A model generated the notes under the pieces. It was not told where the DNA came from, searched no databases, and worked only from the letters and a program-made list of their open reading frames with translations. Below are positions 1-25,290 of a stretch of DNA of 38,650 nt, piece after piece. The stretch comes from a virus (taxonomy: Duplodnaviria > Heunggongvirae > Uroviricota > Caudoviricetes): IMG/VR virus record IMGVR_UViG_3300027777_000022. The stretch is one strand, 5' to 3'. Position numbers and translations under genes: made by a program. How positions within the stretch are numbered: position 1 is the first letter of the stretch; each line of letters opens with the position of its first letter.

Positions 1-3000
1 ATTGGTTGTAAAGGCAATTGACCCCGAACTGGCAATTGTAGCACTTGATGCGGAAGTTAAACCTGAATATCCGGTTCCAATAACGCCTTGTACGCCTTGC
101 ACACCTTGCACGCCTTGCACACCTTGAGCGCCAGTAGTACCTTGAGCACCAGTTACACCCTGCACGCCTTGTACGCCTTGCACACCTTGCACACCTTGAG
201 CACCTGTTGTGCCTTGAGCGCCAGTAGTACCTTGAGCACCAGTTACACCTTGCACACCTTGCACGCCTTGTACGCCTTGCACACCTTGCACACCTTGCAC
301 ACCTTGAGCGCCAGTAGTACCTTGAGCACCAGTTACACCTTGCACACCTTGCACGCCTTGTACGCCTTGCACACCTTGCACGCCTTGCACACCTTGAGCG
401 CCAGTAGTACCTTGAGCACCAGTTACACCCTGCACGCCTTGTACGCCTTGTACGCCTTGCACACCTTGAGCACCTGTTGTGCCTTGAGCGCCAGTAGTAC
501 CTTGAGCACCAGTTACACCTTGCACACCTTGTACACCTTGGCGGCCTTGCACACCTTGCACACCTTGCACACCTTGAGCGCCAGTAGTACCTTGAGCACC
601 AGTTACACCCTGCACGCCTTGTACGCCTTGTACGCCTTGCACACCTTGCACGCCTTGCACACCTTGAGCGCCAGTAGTACCTTGAGCGCCAGTAGTACCT
701 TGAGCACCAGTTACACCTTGCACACCTTGCACGCCTTGCACGCCTTGAGCACCAGTTGTGCCTTGGGCACCAGTAGTACCTTGAGCACCAGTTACACCTT
801 GCACACCTTGAACGCCTTGTACACCTTGTACTCCTTGCACACCTTGAGCGCCAGTTGTACCTTGAGCACCGGTTACACCTTGCACACCTTGAACGCCTTG
901 TACACCTTGCACACCTTGCACGCCTTGCACACCTTGAGCACCTGTTGTGCCTTGAGCGCCAGTAGTACCTTGAGCACCAGTTACACCCTGCACGCCTTGT
1001 ACGCCTTGCACGCCTTGAGCACCTGTTGTGCCTTGAGCGCCAGTAGTACCTTGAGCACCAGTTACACCTTGCACACCTTGAACGCCTTGTACACCTTGTA
1101 CTCCTTGCACACCTTGAGCGCCAGTTGTACCTTGAGCACCGGTTACACCTTGCACACCTTGAACGCCTTGTACACCTTGAGCGCCAGTTGTACCTTGAGC
1201 ACCGGTTACACCTTGCACACCTTGCACACCTTGAACGCCTTGCACACCTTGAACGCCTTGTACACCTTGTACTCCTTGCACACCTTGAGCGCCAGTTGTA
1301 CCTTGAGCACCGGTTACACCTTGCACACCTTGCACACCTTGCACACCTTGAACGCCTTGTACACCTTGCACACCTTGTGTGCCTTGTGCGCCAGTTACAC
1401 CTTGTACGCCTTGCACACCTTGTGCGCCAGTTACGCCTTGCACACCTTGCACACCTTGAACGCCTTGAGCACCTGTTGTACCTTGAGCGCCAGTGGTGCC
1501 CTGCACGCCTTGTACACCTTGTACTCCTTGCACGCCCTGTACGCCCTGTACGCCCTGTACGCCTTGAGCGCCGGTTGTACCTTGAACGCCCTGTACACCC
1601 TGTACACCCTGTACGCCTTGTGTTCCCTGGGCAGCTTGAACACCCTGTACACCTTGACGGCCTTGCACACCTTGTGTGCCCTGTGTACCTTGAACACCTT
1701 GAGTGCCTTGTGCAGCTTGCACACCCTGAACGCCTTGTACACCTTGAACACCTTGTGTGCCTTGTGTGCCCTGAGTAGACACTGCAACACCATTAGCATA
1801 GGTAAATCCAGCTGCTTGCACATTGCCCACAGCGGAAATATTTCCTGATACTTGAAAAATTGAACCAATAATGCTTAACGTGCCAGTTCCAGCTGCTCTG
1901 CCTATGTTGCCGCCGCTGGCTATGATTCTTGAATCATAATCCAAGGTGCTATTACCACTGCTGTGGAAGTCAATATATGGAGTATTAACTGCTGCAACAT
2001 TTCCTAGTTCCATACCTGCATTGTTAGCGTTGGCCACTAATGCACCTGGATTAGTAAGTGTTATCGTAGTGCCTGTTATGCCTCCACTAACTGATATTGT
2101 AGTTCCTGTAAAAGATGTTGCTTGCACAATACCGGACAGTGACATGTTAGTGCCAGTGTATGATGGTGAATTTATAGTGCCTAATGCGCTTACATCTGTA
2201 CTATAAACTGCGGCAGTTACAGATAAGTTTCCACCTGTATAACCATCTGCTTGTACATTGCCAGTGATAGTGGCGCTGCCTGCATACAAGTTTGCGCCAG
2301 TAACACTGCCTGTAACACTGACTACATCACCAGTATAGCTGGCTGTGTTTACAATACCTGTCACTGAAAGTATATTACCAGTGGCAGTGAAGGACAATCC
2401 AACAGTATCAACGTTGGCAGTTTGATTTGAGCCACTAGCACCTACCATCACAGGGTACAATGTGCCTGTGACAACATCAGTAGCGTTTATAGTGGTACTA
2501 GGTCCAGCTAATCCTTGCGTACCCTGGACGCCTTGAACGCCCTGGACGCCTTGTACGCCTTGTACACCCTGTGTGCCTTGCACACCTTGCCGACCTTGCA
2601 CACCCTGAGCGCCAGTTACGCCTTGAACGCCCTGAACACCTTGTGTACCCTGTACGCCTTGTACGCCTTGTACACCTTGTGTGCCCTGAGCACCAGTGGT
2701 GCCTTGTGCGCCAGTTACTCCTTGTGTGCCTTGGACACCTTGTGTACCCTGTACGCCTTGTACGCCTTGTACGCCTTGTACACCTTGTGTGCCCTGAGCA
2801 CCAGTGGTGCCTTGTGCGCCAGTTACACCTTGTGTGCCCTGCACGCCTTGAACGCCTTGTGTGCCTTGAACACCTTGAACGCCTTGTGTGCCTTGAACAC
2901 CTTGTGTGCCCTGCACGCCTTGTGTGCCTTGAACACCTTGTGTGCCCTGCACGCCTTGTGTGCCTTGTGTGCCCTGAGCACCAGTGGTGCCTTGTGCGCC

Positions 3001-6000
3001 AGTTACTCCTTGTGTGCCTTGGACACCTTGTGTACCCTGTACGCCTTGTACGCCTTGTACGCCTTGTACACCTTGTGTGCCCTGAGCACCAGTGGTGCCT
3101 TGTGTGCCTTGAACACCTTGAACGCCTTGTGTGCCCTGCACGCCTTGTGTGCCCTGCACGCCTTGTGTGCCTTGAACACCTTGTGTGCCCTGCACGCCTT
3201 GAACGCCTTGTGTGCCCTGCACGCCTTGTGTGCCCTGAGCACCAGTGGTGCCTTGTGTGCCTTGGACACCTTGTGTACCCTGTACGCCTTGTACGCCTTG
3301 TACACCTTGTGTGCCCTGAGCACCAGTGGTGCCTTGTGCGCCAGTTACACCTTGTGTGCCTTGAACACCTTGTGTGCCCTGCACGCCTTGAACGCCTTGT
3401 GTGCCCTGCACGCCTTGTGTGCCCTGAGCACCAGTGGTGCCTTGTGCGCCAGTTACACCTTGTGTGCCCTGCACGCCTTGAACGCCTTGTGTGCCCTGAA
3501 CACCTTGTGTGCCTTGAACACCTTGAGTACCTTGTATGCCCTGAACACCTTGTGTGCCCTGAACACCTTGTGTGCCTTGAACACCTTGAGCGCCAGTTAC
3601 ACCTTGAATGCCTTGAACACCTTGTGTGCCTTGAACACCTTGTGTGCCCTGCACGCCTTGAACGCCTTGAACGCCCTGTACACCCTGAACTCCTTGTAAT
3701 CCTTGAGTGCCCTGAGCGCCAGTAGTACCTTGAACACCTTGTGTGCCTTGAACGCCCTGTACACCTTGTGTGCCAGTTACACCCTGGACGCCTTGAACAC
3801 CTTGTGTGCCTTGAACACCTTGTGTGCCTTGAACGCCTTGTACGCCTTGTGTGCCTTGTGTGCCTTGTGTGCCTTGAACACCTTGTGTGCCTTGTACGCC
3901 TTGTGTGCCTTGTACGCCTTGTGTGCCTTGAACGCCTTGTGTACCTTGTGTGCCCTGCACGCCTTGTGTGCCTTGAACGCCTTGTGTACCTTGTGTGCCC
4001 TGCACGCCTTGAGTACCCTGAACACCTTGAACACCTTGAACACCTTGTACGCCTTGTACGCCTTGAGTACCCTGAACACCTTGAACACCTTGTACGCCTT
4101 GAACGCCTTGTGTACCTTGTGCGCCCTGCACGCCTTGTGTGCCTTGAACACCTTGTGTGCCTTGTGTGCCTTGTGTGCCTTGAACACCTTGTGTGCCTTG
4201 AACGCCTTGTGTACCTTGTGTGCCCTGCACGCCTTGAGTACCCTGAACACCTTGAACACCTTGTGTGCTTTGAACGCCTTGTGTACCTTGTGTGCCCTGC
4301 ACGCCTTGAGTACCTTGAACACCTTGTACGCCTTGTACGCCTTGAGTACCCTGAACACCTTGAACACCTTGTACGCCTTGTACGCCTTGAGCGCCGGTTG
4401 TGCCCTGTGCGCCAATTGTACCTTGAACACCCTGTACACCCTGTACGCCTTGTGTGCCCTGTACGCCTTGTGTACCCTGTACGCCTTGTGTGCCTTGGGC
4501 AGCTTGCACACCTTGCACACCTTGGAGACCCTGCACACCTTGAGTTCCTTGAGCACCTGATCCTGCTACAGGAGTGCCGTTGGCGTAGGTAAATCCTGCT
4601 GCTTTTACATTACCAGCCACAGATATATTACCAGCCACACTCAATGCTGTGCCTGATGTGTTTGATATGTTTACTGTGGTGTTTGAACCAAATGTAACAG
4701 TACCATTGCCAAGTCCTGGTCCTATTGAGATTGTGGTAGTGGAGTTAGCTGCGCCATTTTCACCAATGCTAATGGTTTTGGTGTTGCCTGATGTGGTCAC
4801 ACCATTGGCAATTGCCAGAGTGTGTGTCACAGTTGATCTGTCAACTTGTATCGCACCGGTTTGTGATACACCACCTAATACAAGTAACGAAGCAAGTAAG
4901 CTGGTACCAATATTGATATTAGATGAGGTAGCACTAAAATTTACCCCACCATTTACAGATATACTAGATCCAAGAAATCCGCCAGTTGCAACAAAATTAC
5001 CCCCTTGTACATTCCCTGTGGTTGAAATATTACCAGTGGCCACAATACCAGCGGTGGTAACATTACCAGTAGTGCTTAGGCTAGTACCGGTGGCAGCACC
5101 AATGTTAGGGGTTGTTAAGTTAGCACTGGTTTTAACAACAATGTTTCCTGTTCCATCAAATGCTGTGGTTGTGTTGTCTACCTTGGCACTGAACACTGTG
5201 CCTACCAAAGTCAATCCAGCGGAGGTATTTGCAGTGTACACTTGACTTCTGCTGAATTCTGCAAACTGTATGTTACTGGTACCAAATGTGATTGTACCAG
5301 ATGGCGAACTCACAACAAATGCAGCGCCAGCATTGACATTTCCACTTTGCACAAAGAAATAGTCGTTGATACTGATTTCTTCTGTGCTGTTTGCTCCGTA
5401 TTGATCAGTGTCTGAGGAACGTATAATAGCAGTGGTGTTGGCATAGGTATACACACCATTCTGTACGCCATTGGCCTGATTTTGCACCAATACCCGTGTG
5501 CCTACAGTTTGAATATTGGCTCCGTCAATAAGATTGAATACACCAGTAGTTTTTAATGTGGCACCTACGCCATTACCTGCTCCATTGGGTTGGTTATAAG
5601 TTATGGTACCACTGGTAGCTGTTTCCAGAGTGGTTGTGGTAGCTGCATACACTGGCTGGTGAAATGTTATCCCAGTTGTGGCAAAATTATCAACGTATAA
5701 CTTAGTTGCTGCATCATAATCTTGTACAGGCATAGCAAGATTATTGATGTATGTGTTAGCTTTCAATACCACATTGCCGCTAGGGTTTAAATTCAAAGCA
5801 CCGGTACTGGTGATTGTAGTGCCTGTAAAAGATGTTGCTTGCACAATACCGGACAGTGACATGTTAGTGCCAGTGTATGATGGTGAATTTACAGAACCCG
5901 TCGCACTTAGGGTTGTAGCATCAACCCTACCAGTTACAGATAAGTTTCCACCTGTATAACCATCTGCTTGTACATTGCCAGTGATAGAGGCGTTGCCGCC

Positions 6001-9000
6001 ATTTACTGTTCCACTAGTAACACTGCCTGTAACACTGACTACATCACCAGTATAGCTGGCTGTGTTTACAATACCTGTCACAGAAAGTATATTGCCAGTG
6101 GCAGTGAAGGACAATCCAACAGTATCAACGTTGGCAGTTTGATTTGAGCCACTAGCACCTACCATCACAGGATACAATGTGCCTGATGTAACATCAGTAG
6201 CGTTTATAGTAGTGCTAGGACCAGCTAATCCTTGCGTACCTTGTACACCCTGTACACCTTGAACGCCCTGTACACCTTGAACGCCTTGTGTACCTTGAAC
6301 GCCTTGTGTACCTTGAACGCCTTGTGTACCTTGAACGCCTTGTGTACCTTGAGCGCCAGTTACACCTTGTGTGCCTTGTGTACCCTGAACACCTTGTGTA
6401 CCTTGTGTACCTTGTGTACCTTGTGTACCTTGAATGCCCTGTACACCTTGAACGCCCTGTACACCTTGTAATCCCTCAACGCCTTGTACGCCTTGTACGC
6501 CTTGGATGCCCTGTACGCCTTGTGTACCTTGAACACCTTGTGTACCTTGAACACCTTGTGGGCCTTGGATGCCCTGTACGCCTTGCGTACCTTGTACGCC
6601 TTGCGTACCCTGAACGCCTTGTATACCTTGAACGCCTTGTGTGCCCTGTACGCCTTGTGGGCCTTGGATGCCCTGTACACCTTGTGTACCCTGAACGCCT
6701 TGCACACCTTGTGGGCCTTGGATGCCCTGTACGCCTTGCGTACCCTGTACGCCTTGCGTGCCCTGTACGCCTTGTAATCCTTGAATGCCCTGTACACCTT
6801 GTGTACCCTGAACGCCTTGCACACCTTGAGTACCTTGGATGCCCTGTACACCTTGAGTACCTTGGATGCCCTGTACACCTTGAGTACCTTGGATGCCCTG
6901 TACACCTTGTGTACCCTGAACGCCTTGCACACCTTGAGTACCTTGGATGCCCTGTACACCTTGAGTACCTTGGATGCCCTGTACACCTTGAGTACCTTGG
7001 ATGCCCTGTACACCTTGTGTACCCTGAACGCCTTGCACACCTTGAGTACCTTGGATGCCCTGTACACCTTGAGTACCTTGGATGCCCTGTACACCTTGAG
7101 TACCTTGGATGCCCTGTACACCTTGTGTACCTTGAACGCCTTGCGTACCCTGGACGCCTTGAACGCCCTGAACACCTTGTGGGCCTTCAACACCCTGGAC
7201 GCCTTGTGTACCCTGAACGCCTTGAACACCCTGGACGCCTTGTGTACCCTGAACGCCTTGAACACCTTGTGGGCCTTGAACACCCTGAACGCCTTGCACA
7301 CCTTGTGTGCCTTGAACACCTTGTGTGCCTTGAACACCTTGTGTGCCCTGAACACCTTGTGGGCCTTGAACGCCTTGTGTGCCTTGTACGCCTTGGGTAC
7401 CTTGAACGCCTTGTGTGCCTTGCACGCCTTGAACGCCTTGTGTACCCTGCACACCTTGAACGCCTTGTGTGCCCTGGGCGGCTTGAACGCCTTGTACACC
7501 CTGTGTGCCTTGTACACCCTGAACACCTTGAGCACCTGATCCTGCTACAGGAGTGCCGTTGGCGTAGGTAAATCCAGCAGCTTGTACATTACCGGCAGCA
7601 GATATATTACCAGCCACACTCAATGCTGTGCCTGATGTGTTTGATATGAGTACTGTGGTGTTTGACCCAAAGGTGACTGTGCCATTACCAAGTCCTGGTC
7701 CTACTGAGATTGTGGTAGTGGAGTTAGCTGCACCATTTTCGCCAATACTAATAGTTTTGGTATTGCCCGATGTGGTCACACCATTGGCAATATAAAGTGT
7801 TTGTGTCGCAGTTGATCTGCCAACTGTGATTATACCAGTTTGAGCAGTACCTCCCAGAGCTATTACACCAGTGGTCTGACTGGTACCAATGTTGATAGCA
7901 CTAGTGGTTGTACTAAACGTGACAGCTGTACCAGCAGTCAGTGTGCTAGTGGCGCTTATTGATCCGACCACGTTTATTCCGCCAACTGCTTGAATGTTAT
8001 TGGTTTGTAGATTACCTACAATGTGAGCATATCCCAGTATGCCCAGCGAGTTAGAGTTAACAATGGTACTATTACCAGTATCATATTGCCAAACTCGATC
8101 CGTGGTTGACCCAGAAACATATACTGAGTTGTTGGCTAGATTAACATATATCCCAGTTGGTGTGGCCTCTTGGAACCCCACGTTAAAATAATTATTAGAA
8201 TATACGCCAGTGCTGATATCATAAGGTACAGATAACTGATATTGACTGATGTTTCTATTACTATTACCAAGTAACCATAACACAGTTCCTGTGCTGTTGA
8301 ACGTTGCTCCACTTGGTGCACCATCTTGAGCACTTACACTCAGAGATTTGTTAGCATACGCGGCTGTGGCAATGTTGGCGACATTGCTGACTGTGTACTG
8401 ATAGATAGTATCGTTAGTAGTTCCAACAATATACATGTTGGCACCATCAGGACTGAATGTCACTCCAGTTGGTGCAGTTTCTTGAGCACTGATGTTTGCG
8501 CTTAGATTAGAGTAAGAAGCTGTGGCAATATTGGCAACGTTGCTGATACCGTATTGGAACACAATACGAGTGGTTGTGTCCAGCACAAACATGGTGTTGC
8601 CACTGCTGTTGAACCAAAATCCTTGAGGACTGGTAGCCTGTCCATTCACATTGGAACTTAAACTGGCGTAAGAAGCTGTGGCCACCGCCCAAGGAGTAGC
8701 AACATTGTATTGATAAACTGCACGGTTTGCACTACCCAACAAGAACATGGTATTACCACTACTGTTGAAAAACACATCGGTTGCAGATGCGTCCTGAGCA
8801 AGAATGCTCAAGCTGTTGCTAGCCCACCAACCGGCAATGTTGGAAGTATCGCTGTATGTTACCGCGTTGGAGGTGTATAGATTTCCCACAGCACTTACTA
8901 TACCAGCAGTTTTAACATTTCCACCAACAACATTGCCAGCTATAGAAAGTATATTACCAGTGGCAGTAAAAGATAATCCAACAGTATCAACGTTGGCAGT

Positions 9001-12000
9001 TTGATTTGAGCCACTAGCACCCACCATCACAGGATATAATGTTCCTGATGTAACATCAGTAGCGTTTATGGTAGTGCTAGGACCAGCTAATCCTTGCGTA
9101 CCTTGTACACCCTGTACACCTTGAACGCCCTGTACACCTTGAACGCCCTGTACACCTTGTGTGCCTTGTGTGCCAGTTACACCCTGGACGCCTTGGGTAC
9201 CTTGAATGCCCTGTACACCTTGAATGCCCTGTACACCTTGCACACCTTGAATGCCCTGTACACCTTGGATACCCTGTAATCCTTGAACGCCCTGTACACC
9301 TTGTAATCCCTCAACGCCTTGTACGCCTTGAATACCCTGAACGCCCTGAACACCTTGTAATCCTTGAACGCCCTGTACACCTTGTAATCCTTGAATGCCC
9401 TGTACACCTTGGATACCCTGTAATCCTTGAACGCCTTGAACGCCTTGTAAGCCTTGTGTGCCAGTTACACCCTGGACGCCTTGGGTACCTTGAATGCCCT
9501 GTACACCTTGAATGCCCTGTACGCCTTGAATGCCCTGTACACCTTGTAATCCTTGAACGCCCTGTACACCTTGTGTGCCTTGTGTGCCAGTTACACCCTG
9601 GACGCCTTGGGTACCTTGTAATCCTTGAACGCCCTGTGTACCTTGAATGCCCTGAATGCCTTGAACGCCTTGTGTACCTTGAACGCCTTGTATACCCTGA
9701 ACGCCCTGTGTACCTTGAACGCCTTGTGTACCCTGCACGCCTTGGGTACCTTGTAATCCTTGAACGCCCTGTGTACCTTGAATGCCCTGAACACCTTGAA
9801 CGCCTTGTGTGCCTTGTGTGCCCTGCACGCCTTGGGTACCTTGTAATCCTTGAACGCCCTGTACGCCTTGAATGCCCTGAACACCTTGAACGCCTTGTGT
9901 ACCTTGAACGCCTTGTGTGCCTTGTGTGCCCTGCACGCCTTGTGTGCCCTGCACGCCTTGTGTACCCTGAACACCTTGAACGCCTTGTGTACCCTGAACA
10001 CCTTGAACGCCTTGTGTGCCTTGTGTGCCTTGTGTGCCTTGTGTGCCTTGTGTGCCTTGTGTGCCTTGTGTGCCTTGTGTGCCTTGTGTGCCTTGTGTGC
10101 CTTGAACGCCCTGTACACCCTGTACACCCTGAACACCTTGTGTGCCTTGTGCGGCTTGTACACCTTGAACGCCCTGTACACCCTGAACGCCTTGTAATCC
10201 TTGAGTGCCTTGAACGCCCTGTACACCTTGTGTGCCAGTTACACCCTGGACGCCTTGAACACCTTGTGTGCCTTGAACGCCTTGTAATCCTTGAACGCCT
10301 TGTAATCCTTGAACGCCCTGTGTACCTTGAATGCCCTGAACACCTTGAACGCCTTGTGTACCTTGAACGCCTTGTGTGCCTTGTGTGCCCTGCACGCCTT
10401 GTGTGCCCTGCACGCCTTGTGTACCCTGAACACCTTGAACGCCTTGTGTGCCTTGTGTGCCTTGTGTGCCTTGTGTGCCTTGTGCGGCTTGTACACCCTG
10501 AACGCCTTGTAATCCTTGAGTGCCCTGAGCGCCAGTAGTACCTTGAACACCTTGTGTGCCTTGAACGCCCTGTACACCTTGTGTGCCAGTTACACCCTGG
10601 ACGCCTTGAACGCCTTGTGTGCCTTGAACGCCTTGTAATCCTTGAACGCCTTGTAATCCTTGAACGCCCTGTGTACCTTGAATGCCTTGAACACCTTGAG
10701 TGCCCTGAGCGCCAGTAGTACCTTGAACACCTTGTGTGCCTTGAACGCCCTGTACACCTTGTGTGCCTTGAACGCCTTGTAATCCTTGAACGCCCTGTAC
10801 ACCTTGTGTGCCTTGAACGCCCTGTACACCTTGTGTGCCTTGAACGCCTTGTAATCCTTGAACGCCCTGTACACCTTGTGTGCCTTGAACGCCTTGTAAT
10901 CCTTGAACGCCTTGTAATCCTTGAACGCCCTGTACACCCTGAACGCCTTGTAATCCTTGAGTGCCCTGAGCGCCAGTAGTACCTTGAACACCTTGTGTGC
11001 CTTGAACGCCCTGTACACCTTGTACACCTTGTGTACCTTGCACGCCTTGTACACCTTGTGTACCTTGAACACCTTGTGTGCCTTGAACGCCTTGTAATCC
11101 TTGAACACCTTGTGTGCCTTGAACACCCTGAGTGCCTTGTGCACCGGTAGTACCTTGAACGCCTTGTGTGCCAGTTACACCTTGAACGCCTTGTACACCT
11201 TGAACGCCCTGTACACCTTGTGTGCCTTGTGTGCCAGTTACACCTTGAACGCCTTGAGTACCTTGTACACCTTGAGTACCTTGAACGCCTTGAGCACCTG
11301 TTGTACCTTGAGCGCCAGTGGTGCCCTGCACGCCTTGTACGCCTTGCACGCCCTGTACGCCTTGAGCGCCGGTTGTACCTTGAACGCCCTGTACGCCTTG
11401 TGTGCCTTGTGTGCCTTGTGTTCCTTGGGCAGCTTGAACACCCTGCACACCTTGTCTGCCCTGTACGCCTTGAACACCCTGTGTGCCTTGAGCACCTGAT
11501 CCTGCTACAGGAGTGCCGTTGGCGTAGGTAAATCCGGCTGCTTGTATATTACCAGCTACAGAAATATTACCAGCCACACTTAGTGCTGTGCCTGATGTGT
11601 TTGATATGTTTACAGTTGTGTTTGACCCAAAGGTAACTGTGCCATTGCCAAGACCAGGACCTACTGAGATTGTGGTAGTGGAGTTGGCTGCGCCATTTTC
11701 ACCAATGCTGATGGTTTTGGTATTGCCCGATGTGGTCGCACCATTGGCAATTGCCAAAATTTGTGTTGCATTCGATTGCCCAACGGTGATTGTACCAGTT
11801 TGTATAGGTCCACCTAACGTGAGTGCTGGTGTTAATTGTCCAGTACCGATATTAATAGTTGAAAGAGTTGTGGCAAAAGTTACTGTTCCGGTTGTAGATA
11901 AAAGCGAGCCAAAAAATCCGCCACTTGCTGCAACATAATTACCCGCTTGTACATTCCCTGCCACGCTCAGTGCTGTGTTCGAAACGTTGGCAATAGCAAC

Positions 12001-14727
12001 TGCGGTATTGGCAGTGTAACTCACTGTGGTATTACCAGTGCTTGCACCAATGGTCAATGTTGAATTGCCTGCCACATTACTGAAAATTGTCACATTGCTG
12101 ATTGAGTTTGCAACACCATTGGCAGCAATATTGATTGTCTTGATGTTACCACTGGATGTGGCACCTATACCAATGTTCAAGATTTGTGTGGCTGTGGATT
12201 GCCCAATTAAGATATTACCAGTTTGGGCAGTGGCACCAATTGTGGTTGTGCCAGTTGTTTGGCTTGTTCCAATACTGATTGTGCCTGTTGTGGTACTAAC
12301 AGTAAATGTACTTCCAGCCGTGAATGTACTATCAACTGTGAATGTGGATTCTGCTCTTACTGCACCGCCAAGTTGTACTTGTTGACCAAACCAAGTGTTA
12401 CCTTGAACTGCCAATTGTCCTTGAATACCCACAGCATTGGCAGTGAGCATGATAGAATTGGCTGTGTTATATTGAAAAACAGTATCGGCGGCAGTACCAA
12501 TCATCCAAGCTCGACTATTGGCCAAGTCAACAAATATGCCAGTGGGCGTGCTTTCTTGTGCCAGTATACCAAAACTATTTCCCAATGCAAAAGTTGCTGT
12601 GCTTACATCCCATGGTGTGGCAAGATTGTACTCATAAAAAGCAGGTATGTTTTGGGCTGTGACCCACATCTTGGCGCCGTCACTGCTTAAATTAACTGCA
12701 TGTGTGCTGCCTCCAGCAGAACTGGTGGTATTAAATGATTTGTTAGCGTAAGCGGCTGTGGCAATATTGCCTGGAGTAGACAATGTGTATTGATAAACTG
12801 TGCTGTTGGTAGTACCAACCATGTACATTGTGGTCAAATCAGGTCTGAACCACAATCCAGATGGCGCAGAGTCTTGTGCTGAAACGTTGGCGCTTAGTGT
12901 TGCATATGTGGCTGTGGTAATATTCCATGGCGTCGCCATGGTGTATTGATACACAGATCTACTGGTTTGCCCCAACACATACAAGTTAGCACCAGTACTG
13001 TCAATAAACAAGTCATTGGGACTGCCATCTTGTGTGGTTACACTAACATTACCAAACACTGTGCCAGTGTTGGCCATATTGGTAGTTGACATGTTGTATT
13101 GAAACACACGATCATTCGTAGTACCAACTAGATAAAAACTTGAGCCTGCGTTACCAAAGAAAAGTCCAGTACCGTTAGATTCGGATGCAGCAGTTGACAA
13201 GCTAACGTTTGAATAACTCCAGCCTTGAATTGCACTGGTACTGGAATTTACGTTAACATTGCTGAGTGTTAGATTACCTGTTGTAAGAACTAGATTACCA
13301 GCTGACACATTTCCAGCAACTGACAATGCATTGGTTTGTGCATTGAATACAAATCCAGCAGTTGTGACATTGGCCAATTGATTGCTACCAGCAGCACCTA
13401 CCATTACAGGATACAATGTAGTGGTTGTGTTATTGTCAGTGGCATTTATAGTATTGCCTGGACCTACTACGCCCTGTGTACCCTGTACGCCTTGAACACC
13501 TTGTGTACCTTGTATGCCTTGCACACCTTGTGTACCCTGAACACCTTGTGTACCCTGAACACCCTGAACACCTTGTGTACCTTGCACGCCTTGAGGGCCC
13601 TGTACGCCTTGTACGCCTTGTGTGCCTTGAACACCTTGAACGCCTTGTGTACCCTGTACGCCTTGAACGCCTTGTGTACCCTGTACGCCTTGAACGCCTT
13701 GTATACCTTGAACGCCTTGTATACCTTGAACGCCTTGTGTACCTTGCACGCCTTGTGTACCCTGAACGCCTTGTGTGCCCTGTACGCCTTGTACACCCTG
13801 TAATCCCTCAACACCTTGTACTCCTTGCACACCTTGTGTACCCTGAACGCCCTGAACGCCCTGCACACCTTGTGTGCCCTGTACGCCTTGTAATCCTTCA
13901 ACACCTTGTGTACCCTGTACACCTTGCAATCCTTCAACACCCTGAATGCCTTGTACACCTTGTAATCCCTCAACGCCTTGAACACCCTGTACGCCTTGAA
14001 CACCCTGTACGCCTTGAGTACCTTGTACGCCTTGTGTACCTTGAGCTCCGGATCCTGCCACGGGATCACCATTTGCATAGTAAAATCCGGCTGCTGTCAC
14101 ATTCCCAGTAACAGTTACTAGACCAAGAGAACTTAGATTGCCGCTGGTGATATTTCCTGCTACCAACAACCCAGTAGTATCAAAAACTGCTACATTAGAA
14201 ATTCCGCCCACACTTACTGTGATATTACCGCCAGAGCTAACCACAGTTACATTGGATGATCCATTGTTGATATTAGCAACTGAGGTAATAACACCACTTA
14301 AGAAAGCCCCGTTTCCTAAGAAATAATTACCAGTGATATTACCTGCGGCCGATACTATTCCAGATGCTAGAAAATTATTAGCACTGATATTCCCAGTAAC
14401 ACTGATACTGGGAATATTCAATCCACCAGATCCTATATAGATTGAATTGAATCGTAAAGTTGGGCTACCTAGATCGTACACATTGTCCCAGCTGGGGATT
14501 ACAGTATTTGTTACTTGTATTTTGCCAATGCCGTTTGGCGACAGGATCAAGTTACCATTGCTGTTGATTGTGCGAATAGTGTTGTTGGCTATGGCTACAT
14601 TGCTCAGCACTGGGCCCGCAGCAAAAACTTGATCAAAGTTTTGATTAGTGTAACTAAAGGCAGTACGTAACGGATCACCTTGTCCGTCATCGGGTACTGC
14701 GCCAATATCAATGGTGTATTGTGTCAT
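1..14727 (-). CDS. Giant modular collagen-like tail/baseplate fibre protein (>=4909 aa, 3' end beyond left window edge)
   Basis: ATG at 14727 reads [31 protein letters not shown], resembling the T4 gp10/gp9 N-terminal motif (INIG..DDGTGD.LR....IN.NF). The same frame carries all five G-X-Q blocks and the spacers I translated, with no stop found, down to base 1. TAAATA box upstream. Absent from the ORF track, probably because there is no stop codon in the window. Confidence 0.9.
79..1791 (-). repeat. Collagen-like 9-bp/Gly-X-Y repeat block 5 (~570 aa; [12 protein letters not shown])
   Basis: Tandem 9-mers (e.g. plus-strand ttgcacacc, ttgagcacc, agtagtacc) translating to G-X-Q/G-X-T on the minus strand. 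Confidence 0.95.
2506..4557 (-). repeat. Collagen-like repeat block 4 (~685 aa; [12 protein letters not shown])
   Basis: Tandem 9-mers, Gly every third codon. Confidence 0.95.
6223..7536 (-). repeat. Collagen-like repeat block 3 (~440 aa; GTQ, GVQ, GIQ, some GPQ)
   Basis: Tandem 9-mers with higher-order 27-bp and ~108-bp units around 6790-7130. Confidence 0.95.
8080..8830 (-). other. Five-repeat beta-propeller-like domain B within giant fibre
   Basis: Five ~50-aa repeats, consensus SV.AQ...P.G..F..DG..MY..G..ND.IYQY.....W.IATA.Y. Confidence 0.7.
9085..11496 (-). repeat. Collagen-like repeat block 2 (~805 aa; [12 protein letters not shown])
   Basis: Tandem 9-mers, including a pure run of ~10 ttgtgtgcc (GTQ) at ~10012-10101. 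Confidence 0.95.
12465..13220 (-). other. Five-repeat beta-propeller-like domain A within giant fibre
   Basis: Five ~50-aa repeats, e.g. [45 protein letters not shown]. Confidence 0.7.
13462..14049 (-). repeat. Collagen-like repeat block 1 (~195 aa)
   Basis: Tandem G-X-Q triplets starting after [12 protein letters not shown]. Confidence 0.95.
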
Positions 14728-14745: not shown

Positions 14746-14751
14746 TATTTA
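14746..14751 (-). promoter_or_regulatory. T4-type late promoter box TAAATA for giant fibre gene
   Basis: GGTAAATAC 18 nt upstream of ATG; the same hexamer recurs before other structural genes. Confidence 0.6.
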
Positions 14752-14771: not shown

Positions 14772-15359
14772 CTACAGCTCGTGATTGGTATCTACACGAT
14801 ACTGGAATGTGTTGATATCTATGTGTTCAAAATTTTCAATATTCTTGAACTCTTTGATTTCTGCTGTAGTGGGTCCGCAAACACGAATAAATTTAGTAGT
14901 TGAGAAATCTTTTATCAATGTAACAACCTGACGTATCCAATTGCCTGTGTAAGTTGGTGCAGCATCTGCACTTTTGTAAAATGCTGTGCCAGCATACACA
15001 TTGTTAAATCGCATGGATGGGCTGGGTCCCATGTCAAATCCCAACATATAGATACGATCATGCCCGTCCAGCGCAGCAATTGCACAGGCAATAGGACCCG
15101 AACTATTGCCATGGTACTTTCTAGGAACTACATTTGCACCCAAATCCGGCAGTGGTTTTCTTGTGTAAAATCTATGATTTTTACTGTATCCTGACCGTTG
15201 TATTTCTTCTGCTATTGGACGATCAGTTGCCACAAGACAGTCTGGCGTGTGGTCTCTATACAAGCCATTGCAGCCATAGATAGATCCTAGAGATCGAAAT
15301 CTGGTCAAATCCAATGCAGTTCTACTCTGCCCATTTCCCAAAACAAATGCCACGGTCAT
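14772..15359 (-). CDS. DUF115/Maf/MptE-like protein (possible glycosyltransferase-related)
   Basis: Motifs AFVLGNGQSR, IYGCNGLY, LVATD, SSG..A, IYMLGFDM. Confidence 0.6.
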   Translation of the reverse strand: MTVAFVLGNGQSRTALDLTRFRSLGSIYGCNGLYRDHTPDCLVATDRPIAEEIQRSGYSKNHRFYTRKPLPDLGANVVPRKYHGNSSGPIACAIAALDGHDRIYMLGFDMGPSPSMRFNNVYAGTAFYKSADAAPTYTGNWIRQVVTLIKDFSTTKFIRVCGPTTAEIKEFKNIENFEHIDINTFQYRVDTNHEL

Positions 15360-15393
15360 AAAAAAATCCTCCCAGTATGTAGCTGAGAGGATT
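15360..15393 (-). terminator. Hairpin/terminator after the MGRPL gene that overlaps the SD of the next gene
   Basis: Minus strand AATCCTCTCAG-ctacata-CTGGGAGGATT-TTTTT-ATG. Confidence 0.65.
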
Positions 15394-15408
15394 GTGAGTT
15401 CCTAAATA

Positions 15409-16224
15409 TTAGGAAGTAACATTGTCAATAACTGCCAATGGAATGTAACCAGCCGGTGCACCTGCAACCGATTCTGTAGCAGTATCTGTTTCTGAACCTG
15501 ACTGTGCAACGCCACCTTCGTCTGTAAAGAAGTTGGCCACATAGAAAAGTTCATTACTGTAGTCGACTTCACCAAGATTAGCATTGCTGTAATCGCCGGC
15601 AGTTCCTGCCCAGTCACGTACCCACTTGTTGCTGAGATTGCTAGCGTAAGCGTCTGAGCTGTCACCAGATTCGTAACCAATGCTCATGTAACCACCTGCT
15701 GGTGCACCAGTGTTGCTCAAAATGCACACACCTACTGGGTATGCGGTTCCATTGCCACCGCCGTCAGCTGCTCTGGCTGTGAAAATATCGCCAGGTGACA
15801 CATTGCCAGTTCCTGTACCAACTGTTTGCCAATTGGTAGTTCCTAGCACAGCAATTTGATATGCTTGACCCACGGTAAAACTGCCATCGGAAACTGTGGC
15901 TGCTGTATAAGCTACCAAATACTTGTGATTGCCTTTCTGTCGAATAATACGACCAGCACCAGCACCAGTGGTGTTACCATCAGGATATAGAATATTCACC
16001 GTGGCCAACACTTCAGGATAGGTGGCACTGGGTTGGCTTGTGGCAGGTGATCCGCCAACCACGCCCAAGAACTGTGCTGCATTTAGAGTCTGCGTGGGTG
16101 CATTATAAACTGGAACATCCAGTGCGCTGAAAGGTGGATAAGCAAGATCCACAGGTGTGGCGGCGCCAGGGCTACCAACACCAGTATTTAAACTGTATTT
16201 TTGTATTTTAAGAGGACGTCCCAT
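15409..16224 (-). CDS. Putative virion structural protein (MGRPLK N-terminus), function unknown
   Basis: 271 aa, Gly/Ala/Thr-rich, strong SD AAGGAG, late box upstream, own terminator. Confidence 0.65.
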   Translation of the reverse strand: MGRPLKIQKYSLNTGVGSPGAATPVDLAYPPFSALDVPVYNAPTQTLNAAQFLGVVGGSPATSQPSATYPEVLATVNILYPDGNTTGAGAGRIIRQKGNHKYLVAYTAATVSDGSFTVGQAYQIAVLGTTNWQTVGTGTGNVSPGDIFTARAADGGGNGTAYPVGVCILSNTGAPAGGYMSIGYESGDSSDAYASNLSNKWVRDWAGTAGDYSNANLGEVDYSNELFYVANFFTDEGGVAQSGSETDTATESVAGAPAGYIPLAVIDNVTS

Positions 16225-16227
16225 TTG

Positions 16228-16318
16228 TTTTCTCCTTAAAGAAGTCCGATGAAGGTTCTAGCTTCTACGCGGCGGGTTAAACCGCATAAGACGCAGGATT
16301 GCGTACAACACTTATTTA
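16228..16318 (-). promoter_or_regulatory. Late promoter (TAAATA 16313-16318) plus structured ~85-nt 5' leader
   Basis: Three consecutive stems (ACGCA/TGCGT, TATGCGGT/GCCGCGTA, GAAG/CTTC) between the box and the SD. Confidence 0.55.
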
Positions 16319-16368
16319 TGGATAGTGAGATATTTTGAGTCAGGTGCAAAAACTTATTAAATATCCAT

Positions 16369-17520
16369 ATGAATATCAATCAAACTCTTGAACAAGGCAA
16401 TCAACATCGCGCCAATCACCAACCAGAACTGGCATTAAAATGCTATGCTGCTGTACTGGGAGAAGATTTCAATCATGGTGCTGCATTCAACAATTATGGA
16501 AATGTGCTACGTGAGATGGGTTATCCTGCTCGTGCTATACCATTTCTTCATGCTGCCCGCGACATCGATCCGTCAAATGTCACTGCTGAATTCAATCTAG
16601 CTGTGGCTTATTTGCTCAAAGGTGATTACGAACTTGGGTGGCAATATTACGAATCACGTTGGCGCTATGAACACATGGCTGGTGTTAAGCCACAATTGCC
16701 AAAGCCCGAATGGACTGGCCAAGATCTCAAAGACAAAACTATATTAGTTGTGGGCGAGCAAGGACTGGGTGATCAAATCCAGTTCTTGAGATTCACTGCT
16801 AACTTACAATCAACTGGTGCCAAAATAAAATTAGTAATGAGTCCCGGTGTCAAAGCATTGTTTCCTACTCCAGCTGGAAATATCATTGGCATCTACGCTC
16901 CTGGTGAAGATCTTGGTGAATACGATTATTGGATTTCCATGATGAGTATACCTAGAGTCATTGGATTACGATTAGAAACAATCGCACACCAATTGCAATA
17001 TGTAGCTGCCACCCCTGAAAAAGCACAAGAGTGGGACAATAAACTAGGGTTAAAAAAGCGTATGAGAATTGGGGTATGTTGGAGAGGCCGACCAGATTCA
17101 TGGATACACAATCACAAAGCCATGCCTGTGGAAAAGATGGCCGAACTCATACGACGCAATCCTGAACATCAATGGATCAACCTAACTGTAGATAGTACCG
17201 AGGAAGAATCACAAATCATAATTGCAGCCGGTGGTGAATGTTTTCCAGGATCAATTCAAAATTTTGCAGACACAGCAGGACTCATGCATCACTTGGATCT
17301 TGTGATATCTGTAGATACTGCCAATGCACACTTGGCAGGAGCAATGGGTCGCCCTGTTTGGATACCGTTGAATGCATATGGTAATTGCTGGCGGTGGTTG
17401 TTGAATCGTGAAGATTCACCCTGGTATCCCAGTGCTAGACTTTATCGTCAACCCAAAATAGGCGACTGGGATAGTGTAGTAAACAAACTACACAAATTTT
17501 TAGGCTTCTTTAAAATTTAA
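16369..17520 (+). CDS. TPR-repeat protein fused to GT9-like (heptosyltransferase-type GT-B) glycosyltransferase domain
   Basis: N-terminal TPRs (AFNNYGNVLREMG, AEFNLAVAYLLKGDYELGW.YYE.RW), EQGLGDQIQF, FADTAGLMHHLDLVISVDTANAHLAGAMGRPVW, DSPWYPSARLYRQ. Confidence 0.88.
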   Translation: MNINQTLEQGNQHRANHQPELALKCYAAVLGEDFNHGAAFNNYGNVLREMGYPARAIPFLHAARDIDPSNVTAEFNLAVAYLLKGDYELGWQYYESRWRYEHMAGVKPQLPKPEWTGQDLKDKTILVVGEQGLGDQIQFLRFTANLQSTGAKIKLVMSPGVKALFPTPAGNIIGIYAPGEDLGEYDYWISMMSIPRVIGLRLETIAHQLQYVAATPEKAQEWDNKLGLKKRMRIGVCWRGRPDSWIHNHKAMPVEKMAELIRRNPEHQWINLTVDSTEEESQIIIAAGGECFPGSIQNFADTAGLMHHLDLVISVDTANAHLAGAMGRPVWIPLNAYGNCWRWLLNREDSPWYPSARLYRQPKIGDWDSVVNKLHKFLGFFKI

Positions 17521-18621
17521 TCGTGCGGTTAGTATTTGATCAACGTCATTGGACATTTTTTTATGCCAATTGGTGTTCATCAATACTTGTAGATTGTGTT
17601 CTACTATTGGTTGTATCTGTTCTAGAACTTTTTGCTGATCCATTGCAGCCAGTGCTTGCATCTGTTCAAATGCCATTTTCCACCGGCGCACATCATCTAC
17701 TTCTAAATCGTAACTTTCGTTTATGATATGATCAAAAGTTCTAAAACCTGACTCTCTAAGATAGTATAGATACCTGTAGCTTGACAATACTATAAACAAT
17801 CGTCTGCAGACCATGACCCTGGCTATTTTTTCAGTAAAGAATACTTGATTGTGCTGTGCATTAGTTTCAGTAACTACCGAGTACGCAGTTTGTTGATACA
17901 CACTGACCGGTGGTATTAGTCCTGTGCGAGTAACAATATCGTGAAATTTACATGGAATTCCAAAATGTGTTATTGGGCCAGGCACAATCATGTCAGGCTC
18001 CAATATTTCTCTTGGCCTAGTAGTTTTACCGCCATAGTAAGACATAATGGTTTGAGGTGACAGCACTGAATCTTTTTCAATCCAATCATGCAATAAAGTT
18101 CTATACGGTCTTTCTCCTCCTAGCAAGGCATCAAATAACATGGGTTTAATAGTTGTAGGGTCAAACTTGTTGATATAAGTTTGCATGGTTGGATGTTGGT
18201 ATACATCTACTGCATCCTGCAACCAATGCTGCCAGATAACCCAAGGATAATGGAGATTGCCAAAATTCTGTTGTCCAGGGCATACTATTAGTAAGTTCGA
18301 GTATACAGATACCCAATCAATGAATAAGCGAAAGCTAAAAATTTCTGGTACAAACCAAACACATTGTATAGGATTAGACACCAGTTTTTTAATTTTCCGA
18401 CACCATTCATTTTTCTGATCAACTTCGTTGCAGTTGAGATATTTTGTATCAGTGGGTTCTACTATCAGAACCACATGTTGCTGATTGTTGTTGACATTCA
18501 ATTGCAATTGATCAAAATTGTCACATAAAATTGTTTGAGGAAAACATTTTTTTACTATAGAAATAGTATTCTCTGAAGGGCCATCATTGAGATTGGCATA
18601 TAACCAATAATTTACTGTCAT
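17500..18621 (-). CDS. Putative glycosyltransferase (GT10/fucosyltransferase-like C-terminal motif)
   Basis: VVTET....FFTEKI.R......FIV......L.YLRESGFRTFDHIINESYD. Confidence 0.5.
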   Translation of the reverse strand: MTVNYWLYANLNDGPSENTISIVKKCFPQTILCDNFDQLQLNVNNNQQHVVLIVEPTDTKYLNCNEVDQKNEWCRKIKKLVSNPIQCVWFVPEIFSFRLFIDWVSVYSNLLIVCPGQQNFGNLHYPWVIWQHWLQDAVDVYQHPTMQTYINKFDPTTIKPMLFDALLGGERPYRTLLHDWIEKDSVLSPQTIMSYYGGKTTRPREILEPDMIVPGPITHFGIPCKFHDIVTRTGLIPPVSVYQQTAYSVVTETNAQHNQVFFTEKIARVMVCRRLFIVLSSYRYLYYLRESGFRTFDHIINESYDLEVDDVRRWKMAFEQMQALAAMDQQKVLEQIQPIVEHNLQVLMNTNWHKKMSNDVDQILTARLNFKEA

Positions 18622-25245: not shown

Positions 25246-25290
25246 ACAGTTATTTATGATACTCGCCAGCATTACTAAATTTATAGTCAA

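What the first reader, a model, noticed from the sequence alone, without database searches (positions are those of the whole stretch)
1..14727. Hidden >4,900-aa gene: a baseplate-anchored fibre with ~2,700 residues of Gly-X-Gln collagen
Seen: one minus-strand frame from ATG 14727 to the window edge. Architecture is gp10-like anchor, collagen 1, propeller A, collagen 2, propeller B, collagen 3, [20 protein letters not shown] domain, collagen 4, [14 protein letters not shown] domain, collagen 5, and onward. Established: a triple helix rises ~0.29 nm per residue. Inference: if all blocks are triple-helical they add roughly 0.75 um, several times a T4 long tail fibre, giving a beads-on-a-string 'fishing line' with distinct binding heads spaced along it. 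The supplied ORF track omits it entirely.
Basis: partly seen in the sequence, partly recalled or inferred. Interest (0 to 1): 0.88.

Follow-up and report, generated by a model that had tools for sequence, protein, structure and literature searches.

The report
Giant collagen-spaced phage tail fibre
An uncultured lake jumbo phage encodes a tail-fibre gene of more than 4,900 codons in which five long collagen-like rods alternate with globular knobs; if the short-read assembly is right, it would be one of the longest virus fibres predicted (about 0.8 µm), built from an unusual collagen with almost no proline or charged residues.

Summary
Window 1..14727 (-) is one stop-free frame of 4,909 codons that runs off the window edge. 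It contains 2,676 Gly-X-Y residues in five blocks, separated by an N-terminal anchor, two five-bladed propellers and two fibre knobs.

It is a tail-fibre gene of a freshwater jumbo phage with a T4-like core:
- Its first ~36 residues match the N-terminus of T4 baseplate protein gp10.
- Module 3 is homologous to the solved Legionella phage LME-1 tail fibre.
- Module 4 hits a tail-fibre PHROG.
- Sister phages carry an orthologue at the same position, with the same anchor but different modules. Complete versions are 945, 1,869 and 2,675 aa, and two end in tail-fibre tips.

A trimer model of collagen plus its conserved downstream cap scored 0.89 against 0.00 for controls.

Not shown:
- The C-terminus lies outside the window.
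- Block lengths and module order rest on a short-read assembly. The Logan contigs I laid could not test them.
- Triple-helix formation, virion location and the "fishing line" function are inferred.
- Only the propellers look like candidate binding heads.

The collagen is 0.4% proline and 0.4% charged residues. I class it as a new variant of a known kind, phage collagen-like fibres. Earlier notes of this scan had already flagged this gene and its paralogues in the same genome.

The parts
1..14727 (-). Single open reading frame of 4,909 codons (474 kDa so far), start ATG 14727-14725, no stop before the window edge
14746..14751 (-). TAAATA box 19-24 nt upstream of the ATG (like a T4 late promoter core). 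The box and the 18-nt leader are conserved in sister loci, where they read IQSETLQ/IQPETLQ in frame.
   Evidence: promoter function is inferred
14050..14727 (-). N-terminal anchor module, aa 1-226. Residues ~1-97 form a strongly conserved domain. Residues 3-36 match the N-termini of T4 gp10 and gp9. The rest is GN(I/V)T..YF(I/L)GNG beta-repeats.
13456..14049 (-). Collagen block 1, 198 aa (~57 nm)
11497..13455 (-). Module 1 (aa 425-1077): post-collagen cap, five-bladed SGL-like propeller A (about nt 12328-13230), beta-repeat stalk, pre-collagen cap
9076..11496 (-). Collagen block 2, 807 aa with three AAQ breaks (~231 nm)
7537..9075 (-). Module 2 (aa 1885-2397): cap, five-bladed propeller B (about nt 7942-8835; 45% identical to module 1), stalk, pre-collagen cap
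6214..7536 (-). Collagen block 3, 441 aa (~126 nm). Contains the longest exact DNA repeat, 239 nt with 108-nt period, at 6785-7130.
4558..6213 (-). Module 3 (aa 2839-3390): cap, beta-repeats, DAATKLYVD knob (nt 5083-5805) homologous to residues 236-388 of the Legionella phage LME-1 tail fibre, pre-collagen cap
2497..4557 (-). Collagen block 4, 687 aa (~197 nm)
1771..2496 (-). Module 4 (aa 4078-4319): cap, beta-repeats, [14 protein letters not shown] domain (tail-fibre PHROG 25788, E 1.7e-11)
70..1770 (-). Collagen block 5, 567 aa (~162 nm), rich in [12 protein letters not shown]. Has a 270-nt higher-order repeat, 5.4 copies at 85% identity.
1..69 (-). First 23 residues of a further small domain (G-Y-S-G-L-T-S...). 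It resembles the start of the ~80-95-aa domain that sits between collagen blocks in sister fibres. The ORF continues beyond the window.
   Evidence: the likeness was read by eye

Best explanation
This is the 5' 14.7 kb of a late-expressed tail-fibre gene of an uncultured freshwater jumbo myovirus with a T4-like core.

Attachment (inferred from homology): the protein probably docks on the baseplate periphery through an N-terminal motif shared with T4 gp10 and gp9.

Assembly (supported only by a model): three chains assemble in parallel. Each of the first four collagen-like blocks is followed by a conserved ~50-residue cap (T-I-N-A-T-D ... L-Y-P-V-M-V-G-A). This cap most likely acts as a trimerisation and registration point for the Gly-X-Gln triple helix upstream of it.

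Shape: five semi-flexible rods of about 57, 231, 126, 197 and 162 nm, joined by beta-structured nodes. The nodes are two trimers of five-bladed propellers and two fibre knobs.

Evolution (shown by comparison): the gene grew by duplicating and swapping a cassette of cap, variable core, pre-collagen stalk and collagen. Closely related phages keep the anchor and the neighbouring genes but carry fibres of 945 to 2,675 aa with other cores.

Function (inferred): a very long, multi-node adhesin that enlarges the capture radius of the virion in dilute lake water. The propellers are candidate glycan-binding or glycan-degrading heads. The real tip lies beyond the window.
For: Gene reality and context:
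- ORF and composition.
- Phage context: gp23-like major head, gp21-like protease, gp20-like portal, baseplate hub and gp46-like genes in the window. The major capsid protein is 62-66% identical to those of Vibrio 2.275.O, PA5oct and other jumbo phages.

Anchor:
- Profile of 27 N-termini against T4 gp10 residues 3-35, E 1e-7; weaker hits to gp9-type connectors.
- 241 IMG/VR loci share the N-domain.
- Each of five related 178-345-kb contigs has one strong match to the whole N-domain, in an open frame of 1,112-2,706 aa.

Orthology:
- Sister contigs are 89-95% identical in nucleotides over the capsid genes and 77-86% over the genes just upstream. They diverge after the anchor.
- Complete orthologues: L008 945 aa, L013 1,869 aa, and L152/L153 2,675 aa. 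L152/L153 has 987 aa of collagen in at least 5 blocks and is identical in two assemblies.
- Tips: the complete orthologue L152 ends in a tail-fibre tip (phrog_5342). L084, a partly read collagen fibre with the M3 module (its start lies outside the locus, so its position was not checked), ends in a Peptidase_S74 chaperone.

Modules:
- M3 against the LME-1 tail fibre (9EFK), E 4.7e-18.
- M4 against tail-fibre PHROG 25788, E 1.7e-11.
- Cap: 250 clusters in 1.84 billion representatives. In 76 of the 103 where I could place the cap, G-X-Y triplets lie directly upstream.
- Cassette structure from module self-comparison.

Trimer model: collagen plus cap scored ipSAE 0.89 against a best control of 0.00. 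That mark was reached by 20 of 30 proteins solved as pairs of one chain and by 1 of 23 solved as single chains. pLDDT was 87-88, the runs agreed in at least 98% of contacts, and the tightest contacts lie at the Y-P-V-M motif. The PfC cap of E. coli prophage collagens has been shown to be a trimerisation and refolding domain (PMC3368898).

Assembly plausibility:
- The longest exact repeat is 239 nt, the longest between blocks is 107 nt, and all 251-mers are unique.
- Every listed contig from the unique parts of modules 2-4 has similar depth within each run: 48-90x in X1 and about 2.5-7x in X3-X5, four freshwater runs in all.
Against: - The C-terminus is missing, so neither the full length nor the tip is known.
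- Block lengths and module order rest on one short-read metagenome assembly. A mis-join through an identical collagen k-mer keeps the reading frame, so the open frame does not vouch for the joins.
- Logan k=31 contigs break inside every block and could not test them.
- No independent assembly of this exact gene was found.
- The gp10 likeness covers only ~33 residues; the rest of gp10 is absent.
- The collagen has 0.4% Pro, 0.4% charged residues and no Lys. It therefore lacks both known stabilisers of non-hydroxylated collagens. Triple-helix formation is predicted, not shown, and the model's pass may owe something to memorised collagen structures.
- Monomer models of the anchor and of M3 were poor or found no PDB match.
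- There is no evidence about virion location or stoichiometry.
Confidence: 0.6

Rival explanations
1. Assembly-inflated or chimeric ORF. The real gene resembles its 1-2.7-kaa orthologues. The assembler over-extended repeat blocks, or threaded modules from co-occurring strains or from the genome's other collagen-fibre paralogues into one frame.
For: - The source is a short-read freshwater metagenome.
- 4,604 of 14,697 31-mers and 475 of 14,627 101-mers are non-unique. Intra-block repeats of 140-239 nt exist.
- Block 5 is a 270-nt higher-order repeat.
- Many sister contigs end inside collagen.
- Joins through identical collagen words keep the frame automatically.
- Earlier notes report two more collagen fibre genes in the same genome.
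- Complete orthologues are all 2,675 aa or shorter.
- No second assembly of this gene was found.
Against: - Exact repeats shared between different blocks are 107 nt or shorter, and those between caps 77 nt or shorter. Reads of 150 nt or k of 127-141 can therefore order the modules.
- Repeat copies differ by 15-30%.
- The listed contigs from the unique parts of modules 2-4 show matching depth in each of four runs.
- Junctions between modules and collagen appear in contigs from runs other than the likely source (table 8).
- Each internal module is flanked by collagen on both sides and has no start or stop of its own.
- Sister assemblies independently give blocks of 380-615 aa.
Confidence: 0.22
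2. The gene is real, but the product is not a straight 0.8-um baseplate fibre. The collagen-like blocks may not all form stable triple helices, or the protein may be attached elsewhere (neck, sheath or capsid) as hair- or whisker-like decoration. It may also be cut into shorter pieces after assembly.
For: - Proline-free, uncharged G-V/T-Q sequence with no salt-bridge triplets. A 2025 survey argues these triplets are the general collagen folding aid (PMC11923368).
- 'Hairy' jumbo myoviruses and phages with capsid fibres are known (PMC13282480).
- Some orthologues end in a self-cleaving S74 chaperone.
- The gp10 match is only ~33 residues.
Against: - The trimer model packs the whole 45-residue collagen part and the cap with high confidence.
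- No protease or Hint domain lies inside the 4,909 residues.
- The conserved N-domain is the same one that heads ordinary-looking tail fibres with tail-fibre tips.
Confidence: 0.13
3. Not a virion part at all: a phage-encoded collagen-like protein that acts in or on the host, for example on cell surface or aggregation.
For: Bacterial surface collagen-like proteins exist (reviewed in PMC8968730). No direct evidence places this protein in the virion.
Against: - The gp10-type N-terminus, tail-fibre domains, position inside the structural gene block, the upstream late-type TAAATA box and the tail-fibre tips of orthologues.
- I saw no secretion signal at the N-terminus in the translation.
Confidence: 0.03

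Closest known systems
E. coli O157 prophage collagen-like side-tail-fibre proteins EPclA-D (Ghosh et al. 2012, PMC3368898)
   Same: - Phage fibre proteins that are trimers.
- A collagen rod is flanked by non-collagen caps.
- The downstream cap (PfC) is a trimerisation module that re-nucleates the helix.
- Lengths vary in multiples of three residues.
- Modules are shuffled between phages.
   Different: - EPcl proteins are about 400-520 aa, with one or two Col domains of about 110 residues (32 nm). They are rich in Pro and have ~22% charged residues.
- Here there are at least 5 blocks of 198-807 aa with 0.4% Pro and 0.4% charged residues.
- The cap is unrelated; Pfam finds no Phage_fiber families.
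- This protein has a gp10-type N-terminus.
T4 baseplate wedge protein gp10 (and gp9), PDB 5hx2/5iv5
   Same: The first ~33 residues share the I-x-I-G-x-x-x-D-G-T-G-D-x-L-R ... N-x-N-F motif (E 1e-7).
   Different: Nothing beyond residue ~36 matches. gp10 is 602 aa and is a wedge component that holds the short fibres; it is not itself a long fibre.
Giant beta-repeat fibres of uncultured phages (P0003, P0004, P0012 and others, 2.7-3.7 kaa) and the related orthologues in IMG/VR
   Same: Same N-domain, the same DAATK knob and similar GN(I/V)T repeat stalks. They show that fibres of several thousand residues are normal in this group.
   Different: They contain essentially no collagen. Their shafts are beta-structured repeats.
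Legionella phage LME-1 tail fibre (orf22, PDB 9EFK; PMC12407071)
   Same: Residues 236-388 are homologous to the module 3 knob (E 4.7e-18). The fibre is a trimer in the solved virion.
   Different: It is a 658-aa podovirus fibre with no collagen.
Glycosylated Thr-rich collagen filaments: Bacillus anthracis BclA exosporium nap, vent-worm cuticle collagen (as cited in PMC11923368)
   Same: Collagen without hydroxyproline, where Thr is thought to be stabilised by glycosylation. Glycosyltransferase-like genes sit next to the fibre gene here.
   Different: Those are G-P-T type. Here Gln fills the Y position and most Thr is in X. Glycosylation is untested.
Streptococcus thermophilus phage antireceptors with collagen-like repeats between variable domains (Duplessis and Moineau 2001, cited in PMC5601072)
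   Same: Collagen-like repeats separate exchangeable host-recognition domains.
   Different: A few dozen residues of repeats in a siphovirus protein, against 2,700 residues here.

Membership tests
Collagen triple-helix repeat proteins (Pfam PF01391) | Long uninterrupted Gly-X-Y repeats | tested here: met
   13 runs totalling 2,676 aa. Pfam Collagen E 2e-35 (block 1) and 1e-86 (block 5).
Collagen triple-helix repeat proteins (Pfam PF01391) | Three chains form a triple helix, nucleated by an adjacent trimerisation domain | tested here: inconclusive
   Model only: ipSAE 0.89 against a best control of 0.00, a mark reached by 20 of 30 proteins solved as pairs of one chain and 1 of 23 solved as single chains; pLDDT 87-88. 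It may lean on memorised collagen structures. No physical measurement.
Collagen triple-helix repeat proteins (Pfam PF01391) | Stabilising residues: Pro/Hyp, or charged pairs such as KGE/KGD | tested here: not met
   11 Pro and 11 charged residues in 2,700, with no Lys.
T4 gp10 / gp9-type baseplate-attached proteins | N-terminal docking motif | tested here: met
   Profile A2 against 5hx2_G residues 3-35, E 1e-7; against 9f4a gp9-like connector, E 0.0025.
T4 gp10 / gp9-type baseplate-attached proteins | The rest of the gp10 or gp9 fold | tested here: not met
   No significant match beyond profile position 36. The monomer model has pLDDT 59.
T4 gp10 / gp9-type baseplate-attached proteins | Physical presence in the baseplate | not testable with these tools
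   Needs virion proteomics or cryo-EM.
Phage tail fibres (generic) | Domains shared with proven tail fibres | tested here: met
   M3 against the solved LME-1 fibre, E 4.7e-18. M4 against phrog_25788, E 1.7e-11.
Phage tail fibres (generic) | C-terminal receptor-binding tip or intramolecular chaperone | not testable with these tools
   The C-terminus lies outside the window. Related fibres L152 and L084 end in a tail-fibre tip (phrog_5342) and a Peptidase_S74 chaperone.
Phage tail fibres (generic) | Position in the late structural gene block | tested here: met
   Capsid, protease, portal and baseplate hub genes lie within 20 kb. A TAAATA box lies upstream.
EPcl-type prophage collagen fibres | PfN / PCoil / Pf2 / PfC domains | tested here: not met
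   Pfam scans of all five non-collagen modules gave only weak End_tail_spike, SGL and Arylesterase hits.
SMP-30/gluconolactonase/LRE-like beta-propellers (PF08450) | Profile match above the curated cut-off, and a bladed repeat | tested here: met
   27.1 and 36.7 bits against a cut-off of 26.3. Five 51-53-aa repeats in each. Atlas neighbours are viral SGL/lactonase clusters, a lead only. Catalytic residues were not examined.

The most novel reading that the evidence does not exclude
The assembly is correct and the gene continues beyond the window. The phage would then carry about six trimeric, roughly micron-long beaded fibres. Their rods would be a new physical class of collagen, uncharged and proline-free G-(V/T)-Q, held in register by repeated cap domains. 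They may be stabilised by Gln hydrogen-bond ladders or by Thr glycosylation from the adjacent glycosyltransferase-like genes. The fibres would work as a long-range capture line with propeller lectin or enzyme heads at fixed distances.
Probability: 0.3. Interest if true: 0.85.

Novelty: new variant of a known kind. Interest (0 to 1): 0.62.

Why it matters
- Size. If the assembly holds, this is among the largest phage structural proteins: more than 474 kDa per chain and more than 1.4 MDa per trimer. The fibre would be about five times the length of a T4 long tail fibre, so host capture in dilute lake water could be studied on a concrete object.
- Collagen chemistry. The collagen has neither proline nor charged pairs. 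A recent survey proposes salt-bridge triplets as a folding aid shared by collagens from all domains of life and viruses (PMC11923368). A 2,700-residue natural sequence without a single Lys is a ready test case, and a possible source of uncharged, proline-free collagen-like rods of set length for materials work.
- Evolution. The locus shows how a fibre grows by cassette duplication, with orthologues of 945, 1,869, 2,675 and more than 4,909 aa behind one constant anchor.
- A new domain. The ~50-residue post-collagen cap is an uncurated domain found in 250 protein clusters.

Tried and rejected
Extending the ORF beyond the window:
- No whole genome is held.
- An exact 78-nt word from the window edge is absent from IMG/VR and from the JGI metagenome contigs.
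- No look-alike appeared in earlier scan notes.
- IMG/VR has no close relative of module 4.

Looking for a second assembly of the same gene:
- Protein searches by module, among long and short proteins, gave nothing above 68% identity over more than a quarter of the module. The window's own protein was not returned.

Reads:
- On 1-9900, Logan k=31 contigs cover the unique modules but break inside the collagen. Neither block length nor order could be tested. The many short-sided 'joints' are repeat noise or other collagen genes.
- One joint (6304 to 1, seen in three runs) only hints that collagen-like DNA lies left of the window.

Other searches:
- Megablast of the neighbourhood against GenBank phages found nothing. 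tblastn of the anchor found nothing.
- Sequence searches of single modules against the PDB gave nothing significant. Only profiles worked (against 35, 48).

Structure models:
- The AlphaFold monomer of the anchor (pLDDT 59) was too poor to search.
- The monomer of the module 3 knob (pLDDT 70) gave no Foldseek PDB match at E <= 0.001.

Considered and rejected:
- That the long ORFs in other frames or on the other strand of the collagen DNA are genes. They are shadows of a stop-free 9-nt repeat.
- That the collagen blocks might be polyglycine-II bundles. There are no regular turns.
Full report
**Observation.** With open ends allowed, the window holds one minus-strand frame from ATG 14727 to position 1. 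It is 4,909 codons long, has no stop and is 3'-open. Runs of at least five Gly-X-Y triplets add up to 2,676 residues. Counting the seven A-A-Q triplets where Ala replaces the Gly, the five blocks span 2,700 residues: aa 227-424, 1078-1884, 2398-2838, 3391-4077 and 4320-4886.

An open frame inside the collagen DNA means little, because other frames and the opposite strand are open there too. The 2,209 non-collagen codons lie in the same frame, however, and would stay stop-free by chance with P about 1e-57. The remark that the ORF track omits the gene has a mechanical cause: an ORF that runs off the window is not listed unless open ends are requested.

**Context.** The other genes in the window are T4-type structural genes: a gp23-like major head protein, gp21-like protease, gp20-like portal, a T4_baseplate hub protein and a gp46-like nuclease. 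The capsid protein is 62-66% identical to those of jumbo phages such as Vibrio 2.275.O, Pseudomonas PA5oct, Sinorhizobium Phosso and Xanthomonas XaC1. There is no nucleotide-level relative in GenBank phages. Near-identical DNA occurs in several freshwater metagenome runs from 2017. Earlier notes of this scan place the window in a lake jumbo-phage genome of at least 344 kb that has two more collagen fibre genes far away; I could not read those.

**Anchor.** The first ~97 residues form a conserved domain found at the start of 241 IMG/VR loci (alignments A1 and A2). A profile of 27 such N-termini matches residues 3-35 of T4 baseplate wedge protein gp10 at E 1e-7, and more weakly the N-termini of gp9-type fibre connectors. 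Nothing beyond position 36 matches, so 'gp10-like' applies only to the docking motif. In each of five related contigs of 178-345 kb, one gene gives a strong match to the whole domain, in an open frame of 1,112-2,706 aa. Most also have a second gene with only part of the domain, usually the first 32-36 positions. In this window only the giant ORF has the domain. A TAAATA box lies 19-24 nt before the ATG. The box and leader are conserved in sister loci. This fits a T4-type late gene, but function is inferred.

**Modules.** Self-comparison shows a cassette. After each of collagen blocks 1-4 comes a conserved ~50-residue cap, then beta-repeats, then a variable core, then a conserved stalk that leads into the next collagen block.
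- Cores 1 and 2 are propellers. They score 27.1 and 36.7 bits to Pfam SGL against a cut-off of 26.3, each has five repeats of 51-53 residues, and modules 1 and 2 are 45% identical to each other. The nearest Atlas clusters are viral SGL/lactonase proteins, which is a lead only.
- Core 3, the DAATKLYVD domain, is homologous to residues 236-388 of the tail fibre of Legionella phage LME-1. That fibre is solved in the virion as six trimers (E 4.7e-18). The domain occurs, sometimes several times, inside giant non-collagen fibres.
- Core 4, the YIDFH..DYDSRI domain, hits a tail-fibre PHROG (E 1.7e-11). In most short relatives it lies roughly 180-220 residues before a common C-terminal domain that the window ORF has not reached.

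Cores 3 and 4 are therefore generic fibre knobs rather than obvious binding heads.

**Orthologues.** Sister contigs are 89-95% identical in nucleotides over the capsid region and 77-86% over the genes just upstream of the fibre. They diverge after the anchor. Complete orthologues exist:
- L008, 945 aa with 549 aa of collagen.
- L013, 1,869 aa with 747 aa of collagen. It has a DAATK knob, a final cap and a C-terminal domain.
- L152/L153, 2,675 aa from the Met, with 987 aa of collagen in at least five blocks. It also has small 74-88-aa domains, a cap and a 178-aa tail-fibre tip. It is identical over 20,141 nt in two IMG/VR assemblies and sits behind homologues of the same upstream genes.

L084 has the same module 3 and 789 aa of collagen, and ends in a Peptidase_S74 intramolecular chaperone with many tail-fibre PHROG hits. 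Its 5' end lies outside the locus I held, so its anchor and position were not checked. Sister assemblies independently contain blocks of 380-615 aa. The window gene is thus the largest known member of a hypervariable fibre locus, not an isolated oddity. Many sister contigs end inside collagen, which shows how hard these genes are to assemble.

**The cap and trimerisation.** A profile of eight caps finds 250 clusters among 1.84 billion representatives. In 76 of the 103 hits where I could place the cap, G-X-Y triplets lie within 30 residues upstream. These hits have at most 624 aa of collagen. The cap has no Pfam family and co-occurs with Mtd_N and Peptidase_S74 domains.

Three copies of a 120-residue piece (45 aa of collagen plus 75 aa of cap region) were modelled as a complex. 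The score was ipSAE 0.89 against 0.00 for the best of three controls. That mark was reached by 20 of 30 proteins solved as pairs of one chain and by 1 of 23 solved as single chains, counts that hold only roughly here. pLDDT was 87-88 and the runs agreed in at least 98% of contacts. Contacts run along the whole collagen part and are tightest at the invariant Y-P-V-M motif. This supports a parallel trimer but does not prove one, and it may owe something to solved collagen structures. By analogy, the PfC cap of E. coli prophage collagens is a proven trimerisation and refolding module (PMC3368898).

**Composition.** The collagen is 33% Gly, 30% Gln, 18% Val and 12% Thr, with 0.4% Pro, 0.4% charged residues and no Lys. 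GVQ (437 triplets) and GTQ (217) dominate, and each is written with 12-16 different 9-mers. A 2025 survey proposes KGE/KGD salt bridges as a folding aid shared by collagens of all domains and viruses. It also notes that prokaryotic collagen-like chains reach about 2,000 triplets (PMC11923368). The size here is therefore not a record for prokaryotes, but the absence of both proline and charge is unusual. Stabilisation by Gln hydrogen bonding, by beta-branched X residues, by the repeated caps, or by Thr glycosylation are all inferences. The glycosylation idea rests on the glycosyltransferase-like genes at 14772-19610, one of which has TPR plus GT9 domains.

**Is the assembly right?**

For:
- The longest exact repeat is 239 nt (a 108-nt tandem inside block 3).
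- The longest repeat shared between different blocks is 107 nt, and between caps 77 nt.
- All 251-mers are unique, and only 475 of 14,627 101-mers are not.
- Higher-order repeats are 67-85% alike.
- The listed contigs from the unique parts of modules 2-4 have similar depth in each of four runs: 48-90x in X1 and about 2.5-7x in X3-X5. Several module-collagen junctions are seen in runs other than the likely source.

Against:
- A join through identical collagen words preserves the frame.
- Logan k=31 contigs break in every block, so length and order were not tested.
- No second assembly of this gene was found.

I put about 0.2 on an inflated or chimeric ORF.

**Beyond the window.** After block 5 the protein starts a domain whose first residues resemble the small domain that sits between collagen blocks in L012, L008 and L013. 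A contig joint seen in three runs hints at collagen-like DNA to the left of position 1. The gene very likely continues with more collagen and a tip.

**Verdict.** This is a real tail-fibre gene, and a new variant of the known kind 'phage collagen-like fibre'. It is extreme in size and number of blocks and has an unusual collagen chemistry. The baseplate anchoring is supported by a short homology. The micron-scale 'fishing line' with binding heads remains a reasonable but untested reading.

Noticed in passing
window 14772-19610: The genes just upstream of the fibre stay in synteny with the fibre anchor in sister phages (77-86% nt identity). They are a 195-aa protein with a weak sialyltransferase-like PHROG hit, a TPR + GT9 glycosyltransferase-like gene on the + strand, and three genes without family hits.
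   Followed up: partly
window blocks 2-5, e.g. aa 1099-1101, 2416-2418, 3409-3411, 4338-4340: A Gly->Ala break (G-V-Q / A-A-Q / G-T-Q) sits 6-7 triplets after the start of blocks 2-5 and recurs further along blocks 2, 4 and 5. Sister fibres L001 and L004 carry it every 20-200 residues. It may be a hinge or a register mark.
   Followed up: partly
window 24448-25293 (-): A homing-endonuclease-like gene (phrog_314, E 6e-20) lies directly downstream of the major head gene on the minus strand, between it and the 1,151-aa fibre gene.
   Followed up: no
window 20885-24340 (-) and 19651-20388 (-): A second fibre-like gene of 1,151 aa with a weak Hint-module hit near its C-terminus, followed by a LamG/concanavalin-like protein. 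Neither has the gp10-type N-domain.
   Followed up: partly
L013:15047-15586, P0035-P0047: A shared C-terminal domain of about 130 residues ends many short fibres and L013. It contains D-L-A-E-M-Y and ends in I-E-V-V-V-G-R-L. It has no Pfam family and only PHROGs of unknown function or 'tail fiber'.
   Followed up: partly
L009:2922-3426: One sister contig has a further collagen-coding stretch between the capsid gene and the anchor gene, so collagen genes occur at more than one place in this lineage.
   Followed up: no
P0022, P0025, P0027, P0032: Metagenome proteins of 5,370-6,776 aa share the beta-repeat stalk with this fibre and have no collagen. Fibre-like proteins larger than this one exist among uncultured phages.
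   Followed up: no
window 31347-33557 (-): A 736-aa gene between the portal and baseplate-hub genes has no Pfam or PHROG hit. By position it could be a divergent tail sheath.
   Followed up: no
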